Virus record (IMG/VR): IMGVR_UViG_2913192161_000007
Coordinates: 1-33,263 of that record
Origin: a virus
Lineage: Duplodnaviria > Heunggongvirae > Uroviricota > Caudoviricetes
DNA length: 33,263 bases
Reading direction: 5' to 3' (one strand)
Part shown: positions 1 to 32,566 of the stretch, in pieces
How the letters are laid out: each line of letters starts with the position of its first letter
Numbering within the stretch: position 1 is the stretch's first letter
Translations under genes and position numbers: made by a program
Notes under the pieces: model-generated
What the model saw: the letters and a program-made list of their open reading frames with translations, nothing else
Told to the model about the DNA's origin: nothing
The model's database searches: none

Positions 1-759
1 GTTTTTGTTGACCACTACAGTAATAGTAAGAAGTTGCCACATGAACAGGCAGCGTGTGGAAAGGCTAATGCTGGCTGTTCGCATTGTCTGCATCAGTTGA
101 GGTAGCTGATCCGGTCGAATGCTGGGCATGTTCTTTTTCTGAGGCTTCTCGAAGGCTTTACCGATATTAACGCTGGGAACAGCATCAATAAGCCCTGTGT
201 TTTGGGCGTAGATCATGACCTCATTAATGCGTTGGCACAGGCGACGAACGGTTTCCAGTGCTCCTCTGGCCTGAACTGGTTGGACGGCCTGAACCAGTGT
301 GTGAGCTTTAATATCTGTAACGCTAACGTCGCCAATTGCAGGGAAGACATCTCTTTCAAGAGAGCGCCAGATATCATCGGCATAGTCCTCTGTCACGCTG
401 GCTTTCTTCACATTCCACCATCGTTCAGCCACGAGCTGGAAAGTATTGGTTTTAGCTTCAAGCGAACTGCGAAGTTGTTCTTGCTGATGTTCCTGTGGAT
501 CGATTTGTTTCGCCAGGAGAGAGCGTGACTCTGCCCGATAGTTTCTGGCATCGGCAAGGGTAACTGACGGGTAGGGGCCTATGCTCTTCTTTGCTCGTTT
601 CTTGGTGACAGGACGAATGTAGCGAAACTGCCAGATTTTACTCCCGCTGGATTTGATGAGTAGCTCAAGGCCATCGCCATCATAGAGAGCGTAGTCCGCT
701 TCTTTGGGTTTAGCAGATTCGATTTCCTTAACGGAGAGAGGTTTGGTTTGTCTTGCCAT
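1..759 (-). CDS. P4/CP4-57-type tyrosine integrase, N-terminal part only (gene continues past window start)
   Basis: Minus-strand ATG at 757-759, open to position 1 in that frame (not in ORF track because it lacks a stop inside the window). Translation begins MARQTKPLSVKEIESAKPKEADYALYDGDGLELLIKSSGSKIWQFRY..., the arm-binding N-terminus typical of P4-family integrases found next to tRNA/tmRNA genes. Same orientation as ssrA and directly downstream of the displaced ssrA 3' copy. Confidence 0.75.
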   Translation of the reverse strand, partial: MARQTKPLSVKEIESAKPKEADYALYDGDGLELLIKSSGSKIWQFRYIRPVTKKRAKKSIGPYPSVTLADARNYRAESRSLLAKQIDPQEHQQEQLRSSLEAKTNTFQLVAERWWNVKKASVTEDYADDIWRSLERDVFPAIGDVSVTDIKAHTLVQAVQPVQARGALETVRRLCQRINEVMIYAQNTGLIDAVPSVNIGKAFEKPQKKNMPSIRPDQLPQLMQTMRTASISLSTRCLFMWQLLTITVVVNKN

Positions 760-884: not shown

Positions 885-916
885 AAAAAAGCCCGCAGGG
901 CTTACGCCGTGCGGGC
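885..916 (-). terminator. Rho-independent terminator downstream of the displaced ssrA 3' end copy (probably the ancestral ssrA terminator)
   Basis: On the minus strand: stem GCCCGCA (916-910) / TGCGGGC (897-891), 12-nt loop, then a T6 run (plus-strand A-run 885-890). Confidence 0.6.
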
Positions 917-963
917 TCTTAGGACTTCATCGGATGACTCTGGTAATCACCGATGGAGAATTT

Positions 964-1007
964 TGGTGAAGCTGGCGGGAGTTGAACCCGCGTCCGAAAT
1001 TCCTACA
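964..1007. repeat. attL core: 44-bp direct copy of the ssrA 3' end
   Basis: tggtgaagctggcgggagttgaacccgcgtccgaaattcctacat matches 32204..32247 at 43 of 44 positions (a at 969 versus g at 32209). Confidence 0.85.
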
Positions 1008-1093
1008 TACCATTTTTACTATAGCAAAAACAGTAGTTTGCATTTAAAAACAGTGCGTTATTGTTATGTAGTGTTTGTCCATTTTACTAATTT

Positions 1094-2164
1094 TTAATGC
1101 GCTGCCGCCAAAGTGCCGCCAACTTCGTTAGGAACTAGAGTTAGTGCTTCAGAAACGTAATCAGCCCATTCCTGCGAAGAAAATGCTTGTAAAGAATAGG
1201 CGTGTTTTCTGAATTTAAACCTCAACTTACCAACATATAAGTAATTATAAATGTTGTCGTAATGTGGTATATCTTCATTATATATCAAACGAATTAGTTT
1301 TCTTGATAGAAGATATGATATTTCTAAAATATCGGCGAATACTTGTTCTTCAAGTGTAAATGTTTTTAATTGATACCCATCATATTTTATCAAACAGTAT
1401 ACATGAGATATGGGGGATGTACATATCAGGTCTAATAACGAGGCTGTATTATATGACAAAGTGTTAAGTCGAATCATGTAACTTAATGGATTATATTCAT
1501 CTATAGAGTGTTGAACCGACAGAGTATTATTAATTGTGTTTAAGTACTCCTTTAATTGCACTAAAAAATCAGGGCTTGCGGTGAAGTTAGATGTGGTCTC
1601 TATAGTTGATTTGTTGTATATTTTTGTATATAAAAGATATGGGTTGGAAATTTTAATTTCATCTGCTGTAAACAAAGTGATATTTGGTTCGCCATTGAAT
1701 TTAATGAGGTTTCCATCTGAGCCTCTCGCGCTTTGAAGATTGTAGGCGAATATTTCCTTTGTTTTCTCAATAAAGTTTTTCTCATGTGCTAAATATCTAT
1801 CGACTGCATTTTTCGTTTCAGCGGTGTTGATCTGAGCTTCGGTTTGTATAGTGCGATGTATATTGTTGACGATCGAAGCCAAAGGAACTGCACTAGCTAG
1901 CAATAGTAGAGGGAATTTGCTTATTTCGTAAAATCTTGAATAGCCATGTGCGGAGAGTACTGGTTCTTTTCCCCACCATGTGAAAAAACCAAAATAGATA
2001 AAGGAAAATAAAGGTGTTAAAACTGAAATCCAAAATAATTTCTGACGAAATAAATTTCTTTTATCAAGCATGTACCATTTTTTTACTATTGTAATAAATA
2101 CTAATAAAACGATTGCTGCAATATAAATCACTGTATAACAAGTATCACTTAACATGATTTTCAC
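1094..2164 (-). CDS. Hypothetical polytopic membrane protein, AT-rich cargo gene (unknown function)
   Basis: 356-aa ORF. GTG at 2162-2164 overlaps the int stop codon (alternative ATG at 2153-2155). Three hydrophobic N-terminal segments (IYIAAIVLLVFITIV, ISVLTPLFSFIYFGFFTWW, FPLLLLASAVPLASIV) then an Asn/Tyr/Ile-rich soluble region. Base composition visibly far more AT-rich than flanking phage genes. Confidence 0.6.
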   Translation of the reverse strand: MKIMLSDTCYTVIYIAAIVLLVFITIVKKWYMLDKRNLFRQKLFWISVLTPLFSFIYFGFFTWWGKEPVLSAHGYSRFYEISKFPLLLLASAVPLASIVNNIHRTIQTEAQINTAETKNAVDRYLAHEKNFIEKTKEIFAYNLQSARGSDGNLIKFNGEPNITLFTADEIKISNPYLLYTKIYNKSTIETTSNFTASPDFLVQLKEYLNTINNTLSVQHSIDEYNPLSYMIRLNTLSYNTASLLDLICTSPISHVYCLIKYDGYQLKTFTLEEQVFADILEISYLLSRKLIRLIYNEDIPHYDNIYNYLYVGKLRFKFRKHAYSLQAFSSQEWADYVSEALTLVPNEVGGTLAAAH

Positions 2165-3177
2165 TCAATATAATTTAAAGGATTCTTAGTTACTGCATCT
2201 TCTAAGTGTTCTGGTGAAAAATGAGAATAGATCATCGTCATTTTTATATCGGCATGGCCCAGAATATCGCGCAGCACCAGTATGTTTCCGCCATTCATCA
2301 TAAAATGGCTGGCGAATGTATGACGTAGCACGTGAGTGCATTGGCCCTCTGGCAGCTCGATGCCAGCTCGCTTTACTGCTCGTTCAAAGGCTTTTCTGCA
2401 CGGGGTGAATAGCTTCCCTCTGTTCTTGGGGAGTTCGTCATACAGATCTTGAGATATCGGCACGGTGCGGTTTTTCTTACCCTTCGTCTTGGTATAAGTG
2501 ATGCGGTATTTAGATAACTGATGGCCCTGCAGGTTTTCGGCTTCACTCCAGCGTGCGCCGGTGGCCAGGCATATTTTTGCAATCAAAAGCAGACTGGGGT
2601 TTTGAGAATCAGCGCAGGCATCTAGCAGACGTTTAATTTCTTCCGAGGTCAGGAACGCCAGTTCCCCCTCAGCGATTTTAAATGTTGGCAGCCCGGCGAG
2701 AGGATTTGGTGCTGACCAGTGGCCTAGTTTTTTCAATGTGCCGAAAACCGATGATAGGTTACGTTGCTCAAGATTCACCGTGCGTGGTTTTACTGGCGAC
2801 ATTAGTGTGCCGTCTTCGTTACGAACGTCACCTTTTAACCGTGCTTCGCGGTATTTCGTAAAGTCACCGGCTGTCAGTTCTGAGGCGATGGGGTCGCCTA
2901 GACCATTACAGATAATTCTAAGTTTCGCCATGAGGCGCTTGGGGTCTGCGAGTGTCTGACCATACAGGGAATACCAAAGCTCAATTAATTCTGATAGGCG
3001 TCGCCGATCATCCTTTTCACCCAACCACGGTTTTTTATTCACTTCTTCCATTGTGAAGCTTTCAAAAGCAATGGCTTCGCCTTTCGTAGCAAATTGCTTA
3101 CGCACGCGCTTACCATTGCGTCCATTGGGATAGCACTCACACAACCATTTTCCGTTCGGCTGTTTTCTGATGGTCAT
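2161..3177 (-). CDS. int: Phage integrase, tyrosine recombinase (P2/186 Int family)
   Basis: 338 aa. Catalytic-type motifs ARWSE, HVLRHTF and MTMIYSHF near the C-terminus. Adjacent to attL, downstream of cI on the same strand. Confidence 0.9.
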   Translation of the reverse strand: MTIRKQPNGKWLCECYPNGRNGKRVRKQFATKGEAIAFESFTMEEVNKKPWLGEKDDRRRLSELIELWYSLYGQTLADPKRLMAKLRIICNGLGDPIASELTAGDFTKYREARLKGDVRNEDGTLMSPVKPRTVNLEQRNLSSVFGTLKKLGHWSAPNPLAGLPTFKIAEGELAFLTSEEIKRLLDACADSQNPSLLLIAKICLATGARWSEAENLQGHQLSKYRITYTKTKGKKNRTVPISQDLYDELPKNRGKLFTPCRKAFERAVKRAGIELPEGQCTHVLRHTFASHFMMNGGNILVLRDILGHADIKMTMIYSHFSPEHLEDAVTKNPLNYIE

Positions 3178-3178
3178 A

Positions 3179-3811
3179 TCAAAGGCTCTTAATGATTTTC
3201 AGTGCGCGGCCTACTACCTCAATGTCATCTAGGCCACACTCAAACGATGAATCATCCTGATGTACTACTAATTTGTTTCCCGGGAGTCGAGTCAATTTAA
3301 CAATGCTTTTTATCCCGTCGATATCGACTAACCACATACCATTTACTGGTGGTGTTTGGTTGCGATCTATTAAATAAGAATCACCAGAAGTAGTCACCAG
3401 CAGTAGGTTGCTTGAGTCTGAGGGGAGTATGCTGCTATCAATGATTGCTTTTCCAGCATCGATCAATAAACCACCGTTGAGAGTCGCCTTGTCAATTTCA
3501 GGAGATACTAGTTCAGAAAGAGGTATAACCTTGCTGGAGTTCACGGAATTGATATTTTTTTGGGGTTCAATGTTTGAACCTGGCTCCCCCTGTCCGGTGG
3601 TTAGCCACAGTAAAGAAACTCCTGTTTCCAAGGCGCACTGAATCACCCACTCTGCAGGAAAACTATCTCTTAAGTATCTGTTTGCCATGGTGCTTTTTGA
3701 TGCGCCTAAGTGATCGCAAAGTTGCTGTCTGGACTTGAAATCATAGGCTGCCATTAGTCTATGGATAGCCTCTCTTCCCCCTGTATTCTCTCCAACCTTT
3801 ACATGTATCAT
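3179..3811 (-). CDS. cI: CI-type immunity repressor (N-terminal HTH, C-terminal domain with S24-peptidase-like motifs)
   Basis: 210 aa. HTH-like SRQQLCDHLGASKSTMANRY. C-terminal SGDSY followed by IKSIVKLTRLPGNKLVV resembles the Ser/Lys region of LexA-type folds. Divergent from apl/cII and tightly coupled to int. Confidence 0.75.
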   Translation of the reverse strand: MIHVKVGENTGGREAIHRLMAAYDFKSRQQLCDHLGASKSTMANRYLRDSFPAEWVIQCALETGVSLLWLTTGQGEPGSNIEPQKNINSVNSSKVIPLSELVSPEIDKATLNGGLLIDAGKAIIDSSILPSDSSNLLLVTTSGDSYLIDRNQTPPVNGMWLVDIDGIKSIVKLTRLPGNKLVVHQDDSSFECGLDDIEVVGRALKIIKSL

Positions 3812-6006: not shown

Positions 6007-6860
6007 GCACCATCCTGAAATGGGCGGGAAATAAAACCGCCATAATGTCCGAACTGAAAAAGCATCTTCCTGCTGGCCCGCGACTGGTTGAACCTTTCGC
6101 GGGTTCCTGTGCAGTGATGATGGAGACGGATTACCCCAGCTATCTTGTTGCGGATATTAATCCTGATTTAATCAACCTCTATAAAAAGGTTGCTGCTGAT
6201 TGTGAGGCGTTTATATCTCGTGCCAGAGCTTTATTTGAGGAAGCAAACAGGGAGGTGGCTTATTACAACATAAGGCAGGAGTTTAATTACTCCACTGAAA
6301 TTACTGATTTCATGAAAGCGGTATATTTCCTGTATCTCAATCGTCACGGTTACCGTGGTTTATGTCGCTATAACAAGAGCGGGCATTTCAACATTCCCTA
6401 CGGTAATTATAAAAATCCGTATTTCCCTGAAAAAGAAATTCGCGCATTTGCAGAAAAGGCCCAGCGAGCAACGTTTATCTGCGCCAGCTTTGATGAAACG
6501 CTGGCGATGTTGAAGGCGGGGGATGTGGTGTATTGCGATCCGCCGTATGACGGTACGTTTTCCGGCTATCACACTGACGGCTTCACTGAAGATGACCAGT
6601 ATCACCTGGCATCTGTTCTTGAACATCGGTCATCAGAAGGACATCCGGTCATTGTTTCTAACAGTGACACATCCCTGATCCGTTCGCTGTATCGCAATTT
6701 TACTCACCACTACATCAAGGCAAAACGCAGCATCGGTGTGGCAGCTGGCGAGGGTAAATCAGCAACAGAAATCATTGCTGTTTCCGGGCCGCGCTGCTGG
6801 GTGGGATTTGATTATTCGCGTGGCGTGGACAGTTCTGCCGTGTACGGAGTACGTGCATGA
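6003..6860 (+). CDS. dam: DNA adenine methyltransferase (Dam-like, GATC class)
   Basis: N-terminal LKWAGNK, FAGSCAV and catalytic DPPY, with overall similarity to E. coli Dam. ATG 6003 with RBS ggaggtg; overlaps both neighbours by 4 nt. Confidence 0.85.
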
Positions 6861-9271
6861 GTCATGCCGATATGAACAACTGCTGCGGCTTTAACGAGGC
6901 TGCCGCAGCATTCTCATGGAACAGCCCGAAAAAGGCCATTAACCCTTATCTGGACCCGGCGGAAGTTGCGCCGGTTTCTGCGCTTTCAAACCTGATCACT
7001 CTGTACGCTGCCGATAACGAGCAGGAACAACTGCGCCGCGAGGCACTGAGTGATCAGGTCTGGGAGCGTTATTTCTTTAATGAATCCCGTGATCCTGTCC
7101 AGCGCGAAATGGAGCAGGATAAGCTAATTAGCCGGGCAAAGCTGGCGCATGAGCAGCAGCGTTTTAATCCGGACATGGTCATTCTGGCGGATGTCAACGC
7201 TCAGCCTTCCCATATCAGCAAGCCGCTGATGCAACGTATTAAATACTTCAGCAGCCTGGGCAGGCCAAAGGCTTATTCCCGCTATTTACGTGAGACGATT
7301 AAGCCATGTCTGGAACGACTGGAGCATGTACGCGACAGTCAGCTATCTGCATCTTTTCGCTTTATGGCAAGCCATGAAGGGCTGGACGGCCTGCTGATCC
7401 TGCCTGAAATGAGTCAGGATCAGGTGAAACGCCTGTCCACCCTGGTAGCTGCGCATATGAGTATGTGCCTTGATGCAGCTTGTGGTGATTTGTATGCCAC
7501 CGATGACGTTAAGCCAGAAGAAATCCGCAAGACATGGGAAAAGGTGGCAGCGGAAACCCTGCGTCTGGATGTCATCCCACCTGCGTTTGAGCAACTCCGT
7601 CGGAAAAGAAACCGCCGTAAACCCGTGCCCTATGAACTCATTCCGGGTTCGCTGGCGCGTATGTTGTGCGCCGACTGGTGGTATCGGAAATTATGGAAGA
7701 TGCGTTGCGAATGGCGGGAAGAGCAGTTGCGCGCTGTTTGCCTGGTCAGCAAAAAAGCATCTCCTTATGTCAGCTATGAAGCCGTGATGCATAAACGTGA
7801 GCAGCGCCGTAAGTCGCTGGAGTTTTTCCGTTCTCATGAACTGGTGAACGAAGACGGCGACACGCTGGACATGGAGGATGTGGTAAACGCCAGCAGCAGC
7901 AACCCTGCGCATCGCCGCAATGAGATGATGGCCTGTGTTAAAGGTCTGGAGCTTATCGCGGAAATGCGCGGTGACTGCGCCGTTTTCTACACTATCACCT
8001 GTCCGTCGCGTTTCCATTCCACGCTAAATAACGGCAGACCAAACCCGACCTGGACAAACGCGACGGTAAGACAAAGCAGCGATTATCTGGTCGGCATGTT
8101 TGCTGCATTTCGTAAGGCGATGCACAAAGCCGGGTTGCGCTGGTATGGCGTGCGGGTGGCTGAGCCGCATCATGATGGCACAGTTCACTGGCACCTGTTG
8201 TGTTTCATGCGCAAAAAAGACCGCCGTGCCATCACTGCATTACTGCGTAAGTTTGCCATCCGTGAAGACCGCGAGGAGCTGGGCAATAACACTGGGCCGC
8301 GCTTTAAGTCTGAGTTGATTAACCCGCGCAAAGGAACGCCGACAAGCTACATCGCGAAATATATCAGTAAGAACATTGACGGTCGTGGTCTGGCTGGCGA
8401 GATCAGCAAGGAAACGGGTAAATCTCTGCGTGATAACGCTGAATACGTGAATGCCTGGGCGTCTCTGCATCGTGTTCAGCAATTCCGCTTCTTTGGTATT
8501 CCGGGGCGTCAGGCTTACCGTGAACTTCGCTTGCTGGCTGGTCAGGCGGCAAGGCAACAGGGTGACAAAAAAGCAGGTGCGCCGGTACTGGATAACCCGC
8601 GTCTTGATGCCATTCTGGCTGCTGCTGATGCTGGTTGTTTTGCCACCTACATCATGAAGCAGGGCGGCGTACTGGTACCCCGTAAATATCACCTCATCAG
8701 AACCGCTTATGAAATCAACGAAGAGCCGACCGCCTATGGCGATCACGGCATTCGTATTTATGGCATCTGGTCACCCATTGCAGAGGGCAAGATCTGCACT
8801 CATGCAGTGAAGTGGAAAATGGTTCGTAAAGCCGTTGACGTTCAGGAGGCGGCAGCCGACCAGGGCGCTTGCGCCCCTTGGACTCGTGGCAATAACTGTC
8901 CCCTTGCTGAAAATTTGAACCAACCGGAGAAAGACAAATCAGCTGATGGGGATACCAGAACGGATATCACCCGCATGGATGACAAAGAGTTGCACGAATA
9001 CCTGCACAGTATGAGCAAAAAAGAGCGCCGGGAACTGGTAGCAAGGTTACGCCTGGTTAAACCGAAACGGCGTAAAGACTACAAACAGCGAATTACAGAC
9101 CATCAGCGACAACAGCTCGTCTATGAGCTGAATTCCAGAGGATTTGATGGCAGCGAGAAAGAGGTCGATTTGCTCCTTCGCGGTGGCAGTATTCCGTCAG
9201 GAGCAGGCCTGCGTATCTTCTATCGGAACCAGCGTTTGCAGGAAGATGATAAGTGGCGGAACCTGTATTAA
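6857..9271 (+). CDS. A: Replication initiation protein (P2 A-like rolling-circle nickase)
   Basis: 804 aa. HxH-type motif [10 protein letters not shown] and active-site Tyr motif YIAKYISK. Position after the early operon. Confidence 0.85.
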
Positions 9272-9364
9272 TTACGCTGATTAACAATTAATGCTCTAAA
9301 TAATAAGCACAGGATAAATCCTATTGATTTTAAAAAAACTTTTTACTTTAACGATATTATTATG

Positions 9365-9384
9365 TACTGTATGTAAAACCAGTG
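9365..9384. promoter_or_regulatory. LexA box (SOS operator) upstream of the Tum-like operon
   Basis: TACTGTATGTAAAACCAGTG: CTGT-N8-CCAG, one mismatch to CTGT-N8-ACAG, in AT-rich promoter-like sequence 46 bp upstream of the first ORF. Confidence 0.6.
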
Positions 9385-9429
9385 GTTAAGTATACAGTAT
9401 TATCTACCCACAGTGAGATAGGAGGGAAG

Positions 9430-9618
9430 ATGCAGGATTATTTTTTAGAGTCGTTGAAACTCCAGCGAATTGATTTTTTTCTTAAGCTTGTAGTGGCCAG
9501 TGAATGTAGTGATCAGGAAAAAGAGCTTGCGCTGCTTTGGATTTCAGAACTGACGGATGAACTCATGGCAAAAATCAGAACCCACGAATATAACCGCTCA
9601 ATGGATGTTGTTAACTGA
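9430..9618 (+). CDS. Small hypothetical protein, first cistron of the SOS-controlled Tum-like operon
   Basis: 62 aa from ATG 9430 with RBS ggaggg (ORF track begins at GTG 9382, inside the LexA box). Followed 10 nt later by the DinI-like gene. Confidence 0.45.
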   Translation: MQDYFLESLKLQRIDFFLKLVVASECSDQEKELALLWISELTDELMAKIRTHEYNRSMDVVN

Positions 9619-9628
9619 GGGGTAATTT

Positions 9629-9862
9629 ATGCGCATTGAAATAATGATCGATAAAGAGCAAAAAATTAGCCAGTCTACCCTGGACGCCCTTGAATCCGAG
9701 CTTTACCGCAATCTGCGCCCCCTGTATCCCAAAACGGTAATTCGCATCCGCAAAGGTAGCTCTAACGGTGTGGAACTGACCGGACTGAAACTGGACGAAG
9801 AAAAAAAACAAGTGATGAAAATTATGCAGCAGGTATGGGAAGACGACAGCTGGCTGCATTAA
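9629..9862 (+). CDS. DinI-family protein (Tum-like antirepressor candidate)
   Basis: 77 aa, MRIEIMIDKEQKISQSTLDALESELYRNL...VWEDDSWLH, the DinI-type pattern. RBS gagggg. Located after the replication gene as tum is in 186. Confidence 0.75.
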   Translation: MRIEIMIDKEQKISQSTLDALESELYRNLRPLYPKTVIRIRKGSSNGVELTGLKLDEEKKQVMKIMQQVWEDDSWLH

Positions 9863-10063
9863 GAAACGTTGCTGGCGTCTGAACTTGCTTCTGGCGTCAG
9901 CAAGGTTGAACAATGAGCTGTACAAGGCGTTAGCCGCCCTCAATGCGGACAGATAACGAAAAGGCCGGAGAGGATTCAATTTCGTGAAGGGTTAGGCGTG
10001 GGAAGCCCCTAGCAAGCGGCAGGCTTTTTGCTATGATGGTTTCTTTTTCTCAGGAAAAAGGCA

Positions 10064-10723
10064 ATGGACATCATTCAGTTACTTGAAGTACTGAAGCCCG
10101 CTAAAGACGTGGTAACGGTACAAATTGCGAGTCAAAAGGAGCCACTGACTCCATGGTTTGACCTCGCAAAAGCGGTTCTGCCAGCTGCGGCAACTGCTTT
10201 TGTTGCATGGCGGGCCATGAATCGTTCACACCGCCAATTTGAAATCACCTCAAAACGGCAAGCAGCTGAATTCGACAAAAATATTGCGCAGCAAACCAAA
10301 GCACTGAAAGTGCAAACTCAAATTGCTACGGAAATTGAGATAAAAAAAGAAGAATGTCGGAACGTGCGGGAATCATGTGCCCAGTATCTATCCTTAGCGC
10401 TTGAATCTAATAGGTACAAAGACGATTATAACCTTGCAATGGATTACATTCTTAAGGGTAATAACGATTTTATTGATAAGAGAAATGTAGCACATGAAAG
10501 CTACATTACATCATCGCATCGTACCCTTTCAGCAAGGTTGTTATTGATGACATACCTTAATCCTGAAACCTCACCTTCCTTCTTTGAATCAATCAAGAAT
10601 GTCGATGCATTGCTGATTTCGTCAGGGCCAAACTTCGGTGGTGCCGTAGGTAAATGCCTTGCGGAATGCCGGATGTACATAGAGAAAAAACAAGCCGAAA
10701 TATCTACAATCTCAACAGAATAA
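10064..10723 (+). CDS. Hypothetical membrane-anchored protein, cargo gene at the tin/old-equivalent locus
   Basis: 219 aa, RBS aggaaaaagg. One hydrophobic segment (LAKAVLPAAATAFVAWRAM) followed by a charged, helical-looking region. No motif recognised. Confidence 0.6.
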   Translation: MDIIQLLEVLKPAKDVVTVQIASQKEPLTPWFDLAKAVLPAAATAFVAWRAMNRSHRQFEITSKRQAAEFDKNIAQQTKALKVQTQIATEIEIKKEECRNVRESCAQYLSLALESNRYKDDYNLAMDYILKGNNDFIDKRNVAHESYITSSHRTLSARLLLMTYLNPETSPSFFESIKNVDALLISSGPNFGGAVGKCLAECRMYIEKKQAEISTISTE

Positions 10724-10994
10724 ACGCTTACTCTGGATGGACATCATCGTCGGACAAACTGGCAAAGGGTTCACCCCTTCTCATTGCCATGATGTAGTAA
10801 TACCACCGCCCGGCGATGTTGGGCGTTCAAACTCTAACCAAAAACAGTCATCATAAGCCCTTCCAAACCAATAGCCGTCGCTATATTGCTACGCCCGCTG
10901 AACAAATAATTATTCCCTGTTTGATTAAAGGCGCACAGGTGCATGTCTATGCCGCATGAATCCGCATGATCGTTTGAGGATCTTTTTAGCTCAG

Positions 10995-11241: not shown

Positions 11242-12285
11242 TCAGCCTCGTTTGCCCTTAAGTCCTAAATCATAAGCTTCAAAACGGATCACCTCTTTAT
11301 CCAGCCAGCCATTCAGCTCCTGCAGTCGCTTTTGCAGTGGCATCAGTTCATTGCGGACGAAGACACGGCTCGCTTTTTCCACATCACCAAAGCCGCCAGT
11401 GTTGTTGGGAATGATGCCCATCATTTGCGGCGGTACGCGGTGAGCCGCCATCATGTCATCGCGGCTGACGTTCTTGATGTTCAGAAATTCATCCTTCGCC
11501 GCGACTTCCGACAACGGGATAATCTGAATGCCATCTTTTTTGCCGTTAGGCGAGTACATAAACAGGTTGCGGAAGTTGCCCGGTCCTTTAGCACTTTTCA
11601 TTGCCTTGCGGATGTTATTCACATCCTCCTGGTTCTGCGCGGCGTCGGTCATGTACATGATGAAGCCTGCATGACTGCCGTTAATGTAATACTTGCGGCG
11701 GAACAGCGTGGCAGACTCGTTGAGCAGGGCGGATGGAATAGCAGAAAGATAGCCGGGCAGGCCGTAGATCTCCTGATTAATGTCAGGTTCCATCAGATGA
11801 AAAATGCTGCCTTTCGTGAACTGATACGGTTGTGTGGTCATGCCATATTGCACAAACCAGTATGTTTCAAGGTCAAGCCCGCGCCGGGTGTATTTTGCCA
11901 GTGCAGGCTCCAGTGAAATAACTTCACCGAAACGGTTCGTGCGTTTCTCCAGGTAGGCGTTACCAAAAACCAGATAGTCCTGCACAAAACGGGTAAATGC
12001 CTGCTGGCTGAGAAGGCGATGTGGAATATAGGTACTGCTGATAATGTCACGCTTAACACTGATCGGGGAGCTGTGGTGCACGGCGGCGCGGAAGGTGCGC
12101 GCCAGTCCGTCAAAGCTGACGGGCGGCTCATACCAGCGATCCATCTGTACGCATTCCACATAGTCCAGCAGTTCGCGGCGGTCCAGTACAGGAATGGGAT
12201 CACCAAAGCTGAAAGCCTCCGCAACGGATTTTTTAGTTTCTTCTGCAGTTACGGTTTCGCCTGGCGCGATATGTTCTTTCATCAA
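11242..12285 (-). CDS. Q: Portal protein (P2 gpQ-like)
   Basis: 347 aa, immediately downstream of and overlapping the terminase large subunit. Size and position match P2 Q. Confidence 0.85.
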   Translation of the reverse strand: MMKEHIAPGETVTAEETKKSVAEAFSFGDPIPVLDRRELLDYVECVQMDRWYEPPVSFDGLARTFRAAVHHSSPISVKRDIISSTYIPHRLLSQQAFTRFVQDYLVFGNAYLEKRTNRFGEVISLEPALAKYTRRGLDLETYWFVQYGMTTQPYQFTKGSIFHLMEPDINQEIYGLPGYLSAIPSALLNESATLFRRKYYINGSHAGFIMYMTDAAQNQEDVNNIRKAMKSAKGPGNFRNLFMYSPNGKKDGIQIIPLSEVAAKDEFLNIKNVSRDDMMAAHRVPPQMMGIIPNNTGGFGDVEKASRVFVRNELMPLQKRLQELNGWLDKEVIRFEAYDLGLKGKRG

Positions 12286-31579: not shown

Positions 31580-31602
31580 ACCTGCTACGGCAGGTTTTTA
31601 TT
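31580..31602. terminator. Hairpin terminator between convergent ogr and the WYL/BRCT gene (possibly bidirectional)
   Basis: Stem ACCTGC / GCAGGT with loop TACG, followed by TTTTTATT on the plus strand; a weaker T-rich tract follows on the minus strand. Overlaps the stop codon of the minus-strand gene. Confidence 0.55.
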
Positions 31603-32080
31603 CATCTGGGATCTCACCTGTTTCAAGAAAATGTATAAAGCCAGGCTCATCTATGATGATAGTGCCTTTCATCCTTGCTGCCGATACTTTTGATGGGCCT
31701 GCATTGTAACCGCAGCAGAGCATCTGAAGGTTTTGGGTTACAGAGGTTCTTACCGTTAATCCTTGTTCATTCGCCTTATCAACCAACCTTTCTTTATCTG
31801 CTTTCTTAAATCCGGTGAAACATACATCGAATGTATTTTTTTTCGGGCCAGACGGCTTAGTGAGATGTGAGTAGTTTTCGGGGAGGAATGTCTCGCATTC
31901 CTGAATGGCTTGTTCTTGTGAATCGTATTGTTTAAGAATGCGGTCTTTTCGGAAGGTTTTTATTCGGTCGGTGTTCTTACAAATGCCCTGTATATGATTT
32001 TCGCTATAACTGATGCTCTGTATTGAGTGAACACCGATACGACCATTTGCATTGATGTAAACAAAGTGAAGTTCTTCCAT
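31598..32080 (-). CDS. Hypothetical protein with WYL-like N-terminal motif and BRCT-like C-terminal domain (cargo gene next to attR)
   Basis: 160 aa, RBS aagagg 6 nt upstream of ATG. N-terminal TDRIKTFRKDRIL resembles the R-x-F-R-x-D-R-I core of WYL domains. C-terminal VCFTGFKK...GLTVRTSVTQNLQMLCCGYNAGPSKVSAARMKGTIIIDEPGFIHFL lines up with the LigA-type BRCT pattern (V-x-TG ... SVSKKT ... AG-SK ... A ... G ... IDE ... F). Moderately AT-rich. Confidence 0.65.
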   Translation of the reverse strand: MEELHFVYINANGRIGVHSIQSISYSENHIQGICKNTDRIKTFRKDRILKQYDSQEQAIQECETFLPENYSHLTKPSGPKKNTFDVCFTGFKKADKERLVDKANEQGLTVRTSVTQNLQMLCCGYNAGPSKVSAARMKGTIIIDEPGFIHFLETGEIPDE

Positions 32081-32199: not shown

Positions 32200-32203
32200 T
32201 ATT

Positions 32204-32247
32204 TGGTGGAGCTGGCGGGAGTTGAACCCGCGTCCGAAATTCCTACA
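32204..32247. repeat. attR core (3'-terminal 44 nt of ssrA)
   Basis: Direct repeat of 964..1007 (43/44 identical); here it is the functional 3' end of tmRNA ending ...GCTCCACCA. Confidence 0.85.
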
Positions 32248-32566
32248 TCCTCGGTACTACATGCTTAGTCAGTCTTTACATTCGCTTGCCAGCTGCGGAC
32301 AGACACGCCACTAACAAACTAGCCTGATTAAGTTTTAACGCTTCAACCCCAGGCAGGGCTTCCACGCGATCTCTTTTGGGTTTGACCTCTCTTGATCCCC
32401 GTCCTAAGAGCGGAGGCTAGGGAGAGAGGGCTCTAAGCAGGTTATTAAGCTGCTAAAGCGTAGTTTTCGTCGTTTGCGACTATTTTTTGCGGCTTTTTAC
32501 GAGGCCAACCGCCCCTCGGCATGCACCTTGGGTTTCGCAAATCCCGTCGAATCCAGAATCAGCCCC
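32204..32566 (-). ncRNA. ssrA: tmRNA (SsrA), complete
   Basis: 363 nt on the minus strand, GGGGCTGATTCTGGATTCGACGGG ... tRNA-like 3' end ...GGTTCAACTCCCGCCAGCTCCACCA. Internal tag-coding region present. Downstream of smpB on the same strand. Confidence 0.95.

What the first reader, a model, noticed from the sequence alone, without database searches (positions are those of the whole stretch)
1094..2164. AT-rich polytopic membrane protein translationally coupled to the 3' end of int, next to attL
A 356-aa ORF overlaps the integrase stop codon and sits in the lysogenic cI-int transcript direction, so it would be expressed in the lysogen. Its base composition is visibly much more AT-rich than the prophage backbone (by eye roughly 30% G+C against about 50%; not computed), which indicates separate horizontal acquisition. 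The protein has three N-terminal transmembrane-like segments and a roughly 250-aa Asn/Tyr/Ile-rich domain with no catalytic motif I recognise. Position at a prophage end, co-expression with int/cI and foreign composition are the classic signature of a lysogenic-conversion or superinfection-exclusion/abortive-infection gene. It is the best candidate in this window for an undescribed single-gene anti-phage or membrane-acting effector.
Basis: partly seen in the sequence, partly recalled or inferred. Interest (0 to 1): 0.78.

Follow-up and report, generated by a model that had tools for sequence, protein, structure and literature searches.

The report
Uncharacterised membrane cargo gene beside prophage integrase
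A 353-residue, very AT-rich membrane protein of unknown function sits in a swappable cargo slot between the integrase and the end of a 186/P2-like prophage. Sister prophages carry a proven anti-phage gene in that same slot, so it is a reasonable but untested candidate for a new phage-defence or exclusion protein.

Summary
ORF 1094-2164 (-) is real and follows cI and int on the same strand. It has 33.1% G+C against 53.1% for the rest of the 31.2-kb ssrA-integrated prophage. It has three hydrophobic N-terminal segments and ends 85 nt from the att repeat. The likely start is ATG 2155 (353 aa), 5 nt after the int stop.

Residues 30-135 (TM2, TM3 and a polar stalk helix) are highly conserved, with dN/dS of 0.03-0.08. 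The C-terminal domain diverges three to nine times faster.

In 62 of 63 viral contigs the gene directly follows this type of integrase. Among 16 related E. coli prophages the slot held this family, three unrelated unknown genes, an HNH protein or an anti-phage dCTP deaminase, or was empty.

My best reading, at about 0.4 confidence, is a lysogen-expressed, membrane-anchored anti-phage protein. No phenotype, expression or topology has been shown. Interest is moderate.

The parts
1094..2155 (-). Cargo gene with the most likely CDS: ATG 2155 to TAA 1094-1096, 353 aa, identical or near-identical to WP_051594477.1. The longest ORF starts at GTG 2164 (356 aa). Residue numbers in this report use the GTG numbering.
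   Evidence: dN/dS 0.03-0.28
2078..2140 (-). Hydrophobic segment 1 (residues 9-29). Poorly conserved in sequence and probably acts as a signal anchor.
1760..2077 (-). Conserved N-module (residues 30-135). It comprises a basic loop, TM2 (43-63), an 18-residue loop, the proline-containing TM3 (82-100) and a polar juxtamembrane helix carrying H103-R-T-x-Q107-T..Q111-I..K118-N..D122..H127-x-K129.
   Evidence: 77-96% identity among the 23 closest full-length homologues (54-58% in the 5 most distant), against 29-75% for the C-domain. Invariant and near-invariant columns across 110 distant members. dN/dS 0.03-0.08.
1097..1759 (-). Fast-diverging C-terminal alpha/beta domain (residues 136-356), predicted to be cytoplasmic. 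It contains the conserved NPYLLY motif (Y179).
1009..1093 (.). AT-rich 85-nt spacer (27.6% G+C over 996-1093) between the cargo stop codon and the att repeat. No terminator is predicted here. It probably holds attP arm sequence.
962..1008 (.). att repeat: the displaced copy of the ssrA 3' end. This is the int-proximal prophage boundary.
   Evidence: 47-nt direct repeat, 98% identical to 32202-32248
889..903 (-). Host ssrA terminator hairpin. It is the first terminator-like site downstream of the cI-int-cargo gene string.
2161..3177 (-). Tyrosine integrase (Int_N and Phage_integrase domains), directly upstream of the cargo gene.
3179..3811 (-). 186-type CI repressor, the first gene of the leftward (lysogenic) gene string.
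32202..32248 (.). Partner att repeat inside the intact tmRNA gene (32204-32566, minus strand). This is the far prophage boundary.

Best explanation
The gene is accessory cargo in the integrase-to-att slot of a 186/P2-like (Peduoviridae) prophage.

Proposed structure: it encodes an inner-membrane protein with three transmembrane helices, N-terminus out and C-terminus in. TM3 continues into a long, highly conserved polar stalk helix. That helix carries a roughly 220-residue cytoplasmic alpha/beta domain that evolves quickly.

Proposed function: the gene is transcribed with cI and int in the lysogen and protects the lysogen from other phages. The most likely mechanism is sensor-effector. The fast-evolving cytoplasmic domain would recognise a phage product. 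The conserved TM2-TM3-stalk module, probably as an oligomer, would then disturb the membrane and abort the infection.

What is shown: gene anatomy, purifying selection, the conservation pattern, slot variability, and the presence of a validated defence gene in the same slot elsewhere.

What is inferred: expression, topology, oligomerisation and any anti-phage effect.
For: Position and operon structure: the gene is on the same strand as cI and int. The gaps are 1 nt (cI-int) and 5 nt (int-cargo), or a 4-nt overlap in other family members. No terminator is predicted before the host ssrA terminator.

Dickeya: one family member sits between cI and int, inside the lysogeny operon.

Linkage to the integrase: in 62 of 63 IMG/VR loci the gene lies directly downstream of an Int homologue (75-100% identity). 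The cI upstream varies from 44 to 100% identity. Klebsiella phage Kp4865-2 has the same arrangement.

Slot variability in 16 E. coli prophages with this int:
- this family, 6 times (one truncated)
- PHROG 7835, twice
- PHROG 21256, twice
- HNH protein, twice
- a 506-aa unknown, once
- anti-phage dCTP deaminase, twice (PADLOC 2e-145)
- empty, twice
All cargo genes have 31-35% G+C.

Literature: int-att is a minor P2 defence hotspot. Six of 8 randomly chosen unknown loci in the P4 hotspot were protective.

Evolution: N-module dN/dS is 0.03-0.08 and C-domain dN/dS is 0.15-0.28. Region identity is 77-96% against 29-75% in the 23 closest homologues.

Topology proxies across 110 members: K+R medians are 3 in loop 1, 1 in loop 2 and 6 after TM3. 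TM3 hydropathy exceeds 1.6 in 96% of members.

Stalk helix: conserved residues of helix 100-131 lie on one face (permutation p about 0.009).
Against: No phenotype, expression or localisation data exist.

No similarity to any known defence protein was found. PADLOC gave nothing for the query or for five other family members scanned singly. One weak 2TM_IV hit (4.4e-5) appeared among 110 members.

No fold neighbour supports a sensor or pore role.

The base rate for unknown P2 genes being antiviral is only 15-32% by the preprint's predictors.

The C-domain is still under net purifying selection, so an arms race is suggested rather than demonstrated.

AT-rich genes in E. coli are often H-NS-silenced.

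One close homologue is chromosomal in Pectobacterium, outside any prophage and next to an acyltransferase gene.
Confidence: 0.4

Rival explanations
1. Superinfection exclusion. The protein sits in the inner membrane of the lysogen and blocks genome entry of incoming phages. This would resemble lactococcal Sie2009, P22 SieA, T4 Imm or K139 Glo, without killing the cell.
For: The protein is predicted to be a membrane protein encoded in the lysogeny module. Sie genes of Gram-positive phages occupy the int/repressor module, and K139 (a P2-like phage) has the exclusion gene glo (for glo as an immunity gene; its map position is from my own recollection). Fast divergence of one domain would suit tracking of variable phage injection proteins.
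Against: The variable domain is predicted to be cytoplasmic by the positive-inside proxy. The protein is far larger than typical Sie proteins. No sequence or fold similarity to any known protein was found.
Confidence: 0.2
2. Lysogenic conversion unrelated to phages. The membrane protein would change envelope properties, stress tolerance, colonisation or virulence of the host.
For: The int-att position is the classical site of serotype-conversion genes in P22 and Shigella phages (my own knowledge). The Pectobacterium homologue sits next to an Acyl_transf_3/HGSNAT gene outside a prophage. Many source strains come from poultry or gut.
Against: There is no glycosyltransferase, acyltransferase, adhesin or toxin domain. 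The only slot occupant with a validated function is anti-phage. The rapid turnover of alleles and C-domains fits conflict better than a housekeeping-like envelope role.
Confidence: 0.2
3. A function for the phage itself. Examples would be a modulator of induction, integration/excision or lysis timing, or an anti-defence or anti-satellite factor.
For: The gene is tightly linked and often translationally overlapped with int. It is strongly associated with one integrase clade.
Against: The slot is empty or filled with unrelated genes in many prophages with the same int. So the gene is dispensable for Int function and for the phage life cycle. A membrane anchor is not expected for a recombination accessory factor.
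Confidence: 0.12
4. A passenger with no current function: a selfish or decaying ORF.
For: One related copy is truncated (L006). The gene is AT-rich and could be silenced.
Against: dN/dS is 0.03-0.28 across several pairs. The reading frame is intact in hundreds of lineages. The N-module is 77-96% conserved among the 23 closest homologues.
Confidence: 0.05

Closest known systems
PHROG 17460 (phage protein family of unknown function)
   Same: Direct sequence membership: E 1.8e-44 over residues 10-294. Other occupants of the same slot (L002, L009, L018) also match.
   Different: The family has no annotation, so membership says nothing about function.
Cargo of the P2-like integrase-att defence hotspot (preprint 10.64898/2026.02.27.708500), for example the anti-phage dCTP deaminase in sister prophages
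   Same: Same slot, same very low G+C (about 33%), and sporadic presence among prophages that share int and cI.
   Different: No sequence or domain relation. The deaminase is soluble and on the opposite strand. This gene encodes a membrane protein co-oriented with int.
Membrane-anchored single-gene prophage abortive-infection proteins (S. aureus PdpSau, lactococcal AbiP)
   Same: N-terminal membrane anchor plus a cytoplasmic C-terminal domain. Prophage accessory genes. PdpSau depolarises the membrane on infection.
   Different: PdpSau and AbiP have one TM helix and an OB-fold-like nucleic-acid-binding domain, and PdpSau sits next to the lysis module. This protein has three TM helices, a conserved stalk and a domain with no OB-fold or other match. 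No homology was found.
Superinfection-exclusion proteins of lysogeny modules (Sie2009, Ltp, SieA, Imm, K139 Glo)
   Same: Encoded in or next to the int/repressor module and membrane- or envelope-associated (plus my own knowledge).
   Different: Those proteins are much smaller and act at or outside the membrane. There is no sequence similarity. Here the variable domain is predicted to be cytoplasmic.
Transmembrane effectors of signalling defence systems (CBASS/Pycsar 2TM, SLATT)
   Same: Short multi-TM module followed by a helical extension. One of 110 family members weakly hit PADLOC 2TM_IV (4.4e-5).
   Different: The gene stands alone with no cyclase or sensor partner. The query itself does not hit. 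The single hit may reflect TM-composition bias.

Membership tests
PHROG 17460 | Significant match to the family HMM over most of its length | tested here: met
   E 1.8e-44, residues 10-294 against profile positions 6-291 of 343
P2/186-like int-att hotspot cargo | Located between the integrase gene and the att repeat of a P2/186-like prophage | tested here: met
   int 2161-3177, cargo 1094-2155, att 962-1008. 186-type cI, cII, Fil and GpA neighbours.
P2/186-like int-att hotspot cargo | Occupancy of the slot varies among prophages that share the flanking core genes | tested here: met
   Six gene classes plus the empty state in 16 E. coli prophages. Exact gene in 5 genomes against 223 with this int/cI type.
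P2/186-like int-att hotspot cargo | Known defence genes occur among the alternative occupants | tested here: met
   Anti-phage dCTP deaminase in L090 and L098, PADLOC dCTPase 2e-145
Anti-phage defence system (any) | Reduces phage infection when expressed | not testable with these tools
   Needs plaque and liquid infection assays
Known defence families in PADLOC-DB v2.0.0 | HMM match to a catalogued defence protein | tested here: not met
   No hit for the query or for five other family members scanned singly. One weak 2TM_IV hit among 110 members.
Curated protein families (Pfam-A, NCBIfam) | Match above the curated cut-off | tested here: not met
   Best hits were DUF3810 at 19.5 bits (cut-off 28) and TIGR04527 at 18.5 bits (cut-off 125). 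No family is shared among 110 members.
Membrane-anchored Abi proteins (PdpSau/AbiP type) | N-terminal membrane anchor with a cytoplasmic C-terminal domain | tested here: inconclusive
   Hydropathy and the positive-inside proxy support N-out/C-in with 3 TM helices. No dedicated topology predictor or experiment was available.
Membrane-anchored Abi proteins (PdpSau/AbiP type) | OB-fold-like nucleic-acid-binding C-terminal domain | tested here: not met
Superinfection-exclusion proteins of lysogeny modules | Gene lies in the lysogeny module and is co-oriented with repressor and int | tested here: met
Superinfection-exclusion proteins of lysogeny modules | Blocks phage DNA entry without killing the cell | not testable with these tools
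   Needs adsorption and DNA-injection assays
Serotype-conversion modules at int-att (Gtr, Oac) | Glycosyltransferase, flippase or acyltransferase domain | tested here: not met
   No such Pfam domain in the query or in 110 relatives
HEPN-type RNase effectors | Rx4-6H motif in an alpha-helical domain | tested here: not met
   The conserved D122-R-Y-L-A-H127 has only three residues between R and H, and R123 is not conserved across the family

The most novel reading that the evidence does not exclude
PHROG 17460 is a new, widespread single-gene anti-phage immunity family of Peduoviridae lysogeny modules. In this reading its conserved TM2-TM3-polar-stalk module is a previously unrecognised membrane effector, for example an oligomeric channel. 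Its hyper-divergent cytoplasmic domain, with a fold not seen in the PDB, is the phage sensor. The conserved 5' module and the att site would serve as recombination anchors that let C-domain alleles be swapped between prophages.
Probability: 0.25. Interest if true: 0.65.

Novelty: new variant of a known kind. Interest (0 to 1): 0.45.

Why it matters
If the protein is protective, it adds a defence or exclusion family missing from current catalogues. The family has about 710 clusters at 50% identity, mostly in Enterobacterales with some in Pseudomonas. It may well be the commonest occupant of a little-studied prophage hotspot. Its clean split into a near-invariant membrane module and a fast-evolving soluble domain makes it a tractable model for how a single protein couples phage sensing to a membrane effector. 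It could also show how alleles are exchanged at a prophage end. It would improve annotation of ssrA-integrated and related 186-like prophages in clinical and poultry E. coli, Klebsiella, Citrobacter, Enterobacter and Salmonella. If it is not protective, it remains an ordinary unannotated prophage accessory gene.

Tried and rejected
1. Sequence families. Pfam, NCBIfam and PADLOC scans of the query and of 110 diverse relatives gave nothing above threshold. The DUF3810 hit (19.5 bits) covers TM segments and is below the cut-off, so I rejected it.

2. Solved structures by sequence profile. Only noise, E at least 0.08.

3. Fold searches.
- Foldseek against BFVD: no hit with E at or below 0.001.
- afdb50 was not available.

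4. Motif ideas.
- HEPN (Rx4-6H) was rejected on spacing and on poor conservation of the R.
- PLD-type HxKxxxxD was rejected because the spacing here is HxKxxxE, the motif lies in a helix, and there is no second copy.
- HExxH metalloprotease was rejected because the sequence is HEKNF.

5. Domain swapping of the C-terminus for unrelated domains. Rejected: 176 of 198 C-terminal regions are linked by transitive homology, so the domain is divergent, not replaced.

6. N-module-only profile search for fusions to known domains. It returned only short fragments.

7. The search for related loci with the very diverse alignment A3 failed because it had no conserved stretch. A1 worked, but its patterns favour close relatives.

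8. Literature. No paper contains WP_051594477 or phrog_17460. Rousset et al. 2022 did not examine this slot.

9. Low G+C as proof of recent transfer. Rejected as a specific argument because it is family-wide and slot-wide.

Full report
**1. What is in the sequence**

The window holds a 31.24-kb 186/P2-like prophage bounded by a 47-nt direct repeat at 962-1008 and 32202-32248 (98% identity). The second copy lies inside the intact tmRNA gene at 32204-32566 on the minus strand, so the phage is integrated in ssrA.

At the low-coordinate end, three genes run on the minus strand:
- a 186-type CI repressor (3179-3811; Pfam Phage_CI_repr and Phage_CI_C)
- a tyrosine integrase (2161-3177; Int_N and Phage_integrase)
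- the ORF in question (1094-2164)

The cI-int gap is 1 nt. The longest form of the ORF starts at GTG 2164 and overlaps the int stop as GTGA. RefSeq (WP_051594477.1) and the closest homologues start at ATG 2155, 5 nt after the int stop, giving 353 aa. In other family members the start does overlap int by 4 nt.

The gene ends 85 nt before the att repeat. No terminator-like hairpin is found on the minus strand between cI and the host ssrA terminator at 903-889.

**2. Check of the observation**

- G+C is 33.1% for the ORF (GC3 29.4%), 47.7% for int, 43.6% for cI and 53.1% for the rest of the prophage. It is the lowest 1-kb G+C stretch in the window.
- Three hydrophobic segments lie at residues 9-29, 43-63 and 82-100. 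The rest of the protein is rich in L, I, Y and N.
The one caveat is the start codon.

**3. It is a real, selected gene of an undescribed family**

- A word-indexed search found 80 homologues, all labelled hypothetical and all from Enterobacterales.
- A profile search of 1.84 billion representatives found 710 clusters with E at or below 0.001, and 95 with E at or below 1e-30. Nearly all are 310-400 aa long.
- A later search added Pseudomonas veronii.
- The query matches PHROG 17460, of unknown function, at 1.8e-44. It matches nothing above threshold in Pfam, NCBIfam or PADLOC.
- None of 110 diverse relatives shares a Pfam or PADLOC family.
- No paper in the library contains the RefSeq accession or the PHROG number.
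- Nei-Gojobori dN/dS against the two closest homologues is 0.03-0.08 for residues 30-135 and 0.26-0.28 for residues 136-344. Other pairs give 0.02-0.08 and 0.14-0.16. The gene is under purifying selection throughout, and the C-terminal domain evolves three to nine times faster.

**4. Anatomy of the protein**

- Among 28 full-length homologues, residues 30-135 are 77-96% identical to the query in the 23 closest and 54-58% in the 5 most distant. Residues 136-356 are 29-75% identical.
- Across 110 distant members the invariant or near-invariant positions are L38, Q41, F44, P51, W63, G74, F78, P85, L89, H103, R104, T105, Q107, T108, Q111, I112, K118, N119, D122, H127, K129 and Y179.
- These positions lie in TM2, the short loop, the proline-containing TM3 and a helix that continues from TM3.
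- AlphaFold (29 sequences, mean pLDDT 78) predicts that helix as residues 93-138, followed by an alpha/beta domain with pLDDT of about 90. The domain modelled alone gives pLDDT 85 and pTM 0.85.
- Conserved residues of helix 100-131 cluster on one face (conservation moment 0.184 against 0.077 in permutations, p about 0.009). This fits a packing or oligomer interface.
- Topology proxies across the family: median K+R is 3 in loop 1, 1 in loop 2 and 6 just after TM3. TM3 exceeds the 1.6 hydropathy threshold in 96% of members. This favours N-out/C-in, with the variable domain in the cytoplasm. That is an inference, not a measurement.
- The C-terminal regions are homologous across the family but very divergent. 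Of 198, 176 join one cluster at E below 1e-3 with 50% coverage, but they split into 46 clusters at E below 1e-10 with 70% coverage.

**5. No structural or sequence neighbour**

- Foldseek against BFVD gave nothing with E at or below 0.001.
- PDB sequence profiles gave nothing.
- The AFDB library was unavailable.
- The fold is therefore unassigned with these tools.

**6. Genomic context elsewhere**

- Citrobacter, Klebsiella aerogenes, Raoultella, Enterobacter and other E. coli strains carry family members in exactly the same place, after int in 186-like prophages.
- In IMG/VR, 62 of 63 loci have the gene immediately downstream of an Int homologue (75-100% identity). The cI upstream ranges from 44 to 100% identity. 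The search patterns favour close relatives. The one exception has an extra 1-kb gene in between.
- Klebsiella phage Kp4865-2 (Peduoviridae) has the same arrangement.
- In Dickeya zeae the gene sits between cI and int.
- Members also occur outside prophages. In Pectobacterium one lies between rplY and ndpA, next to an acyltransferase-3 gene. In Serratia and Pseudomonas they lie in regions with resolvase, primase or transposase genes.
- Every family member examined is AT-rich: 29-35% G+C in Enterobacterales and 39.5% in Pseudomonas.

**7. The slot is a variable cargo site that can hold a validated defence gene**

This int/cI type is present in 223 of 5426 complete E. coli genomes. The exact cargo gene is in 5. 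Ten more carry a relative that is detectable at the DNA level only over the conserved N-module.

I inspected 16 such prophages. The sample is not random. The slot held:

| Occupant | Count |
|---|---|
| This family (one copy truncated) | 6 |
| PHROG 7835 | 2 |
| 222-aa PHROG 21256 protein | 2 |
| HNH protein | 2 |
| 506-aa unknown | 1 |
| Anti-phage dCTP deaminase, opposite strand (PADLOC dCTPase 2e-145) | 2 |
| Empty | 2 |

. All cargo genes have 31-35% G+C.

In K. aerogenes a family member and a PHROG 7835 gene are stacked.

A 2026 preprint reports the int-att interval as a minor P2 defence hotspot holding 3% of P2 systems. It found that 6 of 8 randomly chosen unknown loci in the P4 hotspot protected against phages. 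It predicted 15-32% of unknown P2 proteins to be antiviral. Rousset et al. 2022 did not study this slot.

**8. Interpretation**

The data fit an accessory gene of the lysogeny operon that encodes a membrane-anchored protein with a conserved membrane-and-stalk module and a fast-diverging cytoplasmic domain.

| Reading | Confidence |
|---|---|
| Anti-phage protein working as a sensor coupled to a membrane effector (abortive-infection type) | about 0.4 |
| Superinfection exclusion at the inner membrane | about 0.2 |
| Lysogenic conversion unrelated to phages | about 0.2 |
| A role in the phage's own life cycle or in counter-defence | about 0.12 |
| A functionless passenger | about 0.05 |

The passenger reading is contradicted by the selection analysis.

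PdpSau and AbiP are functional analogues only. They have one TM helix and an OB-like domain, and the C-domain here shows no OB-fold match.

Expression, topology, oligomeric state and phenotype are all unproven.

**9. Verdict**

It remains a hypothesis.

The kind of thing, prophage hotspot cargo that may be a single-gene membrane defence, is known. The protein family and its fold are not described. I rate it a new variant of a known kind, with moderate interest of 0.45.

Noticed in passing
window 31598-32080 (-): A 160-aa ORF lies at the other prophage end, next to ssrA. It matches PHROG 2561 ('DNA ligase', 1e-76), is weakly BRCT-like (Pfam 19.9 bits, below cut-off), and matches the C-terminal 70 residues of PADLOC candidate PDC-S48 (2e-7). 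It may be a second accessory gene at the far att end.
   Followed up: partly
window 9000-10800: The classical P2 hotspot between the GpA replicase (6857-9271) and the portal gene (11242-12285, minus strand) is moderately AT-rich (about 42% G+C). It holds ORFs 9611-9979 (-) and 10064-10723 (+), which have no Pfam or PADLOC hit. The second also has no PHROG hit.
   Followed up: partly
window 25-759 (-): The host-side flank encodes the N-terminal 250 residues of a second, P4/CP4-57-type integrase. It is 46% identical to the 'integrase domain-containing protein' next to att in strain 573 and runs off the window start. So ssrA carries a tandem array: the 186-like prophage, then another integrative island that uses the displaced ssrA 3' copy.
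   Followed up: partly
L009 6001-8377 (Klebsiella aerogenes); L003 1724-2980 and L099 1371-2576 (E. coli, including LF82): A second unknown family (PHROG 7835, about 400 aa, AT-rich, no Pfam or PADLOC hit) occupies the same int-att slot. It is alone in E. coli and stacked behind a PHROG 17460 member in K. aerogenes. This suggests independent cassettes that can be combined.
   Followed up: partly
L090 472-2205 and L098 473-2206: In sister prophages with the same integrase, the slot carries an anti-phage dCTP deaminase on the opposite strand (32.7% G+C in L090, PADLOC dCTPase 2e-145 for the L090 copy; L098 by RefSeq annotation only).
   Followed up: yes
L007 6001-8334 (Pectobacterium aroidearum): A full-length homologue (about 48% identity) lies outside any prophage, between rplY and ndpA. 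An Acyl_transf_3/HGSNAT-type acyltransferase gene follows it. This could be a two-gene islet or the remnant of a conversion module.
   Followed up: no
L018 6424-9283 (Dickeya zeae): Here the family member is inserted between cI and int rather than after int. The gene is therefore inside the lysogeny operon.
   Followed up: partly
L006 1668-2648 (E. coli 33-6): The slot contains a truncated copy of the family. A 192-aa annotated remnant is 100% identical to the C-terminal part of the L002 allele, with an unannotated 400-nt gap up to int. This is an example of decay of this cargo.
   Followed up: partly
L025 6900-8325: In one E. coli contig, an RnlA/RnlB toxin-antitoxin (anti-phage) pair lies just beyond the prophage end that carries a close homologue of the cargo gene. 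This may reflect clustering of defence genes around ssrA-proximal islands.
   Followed up: no
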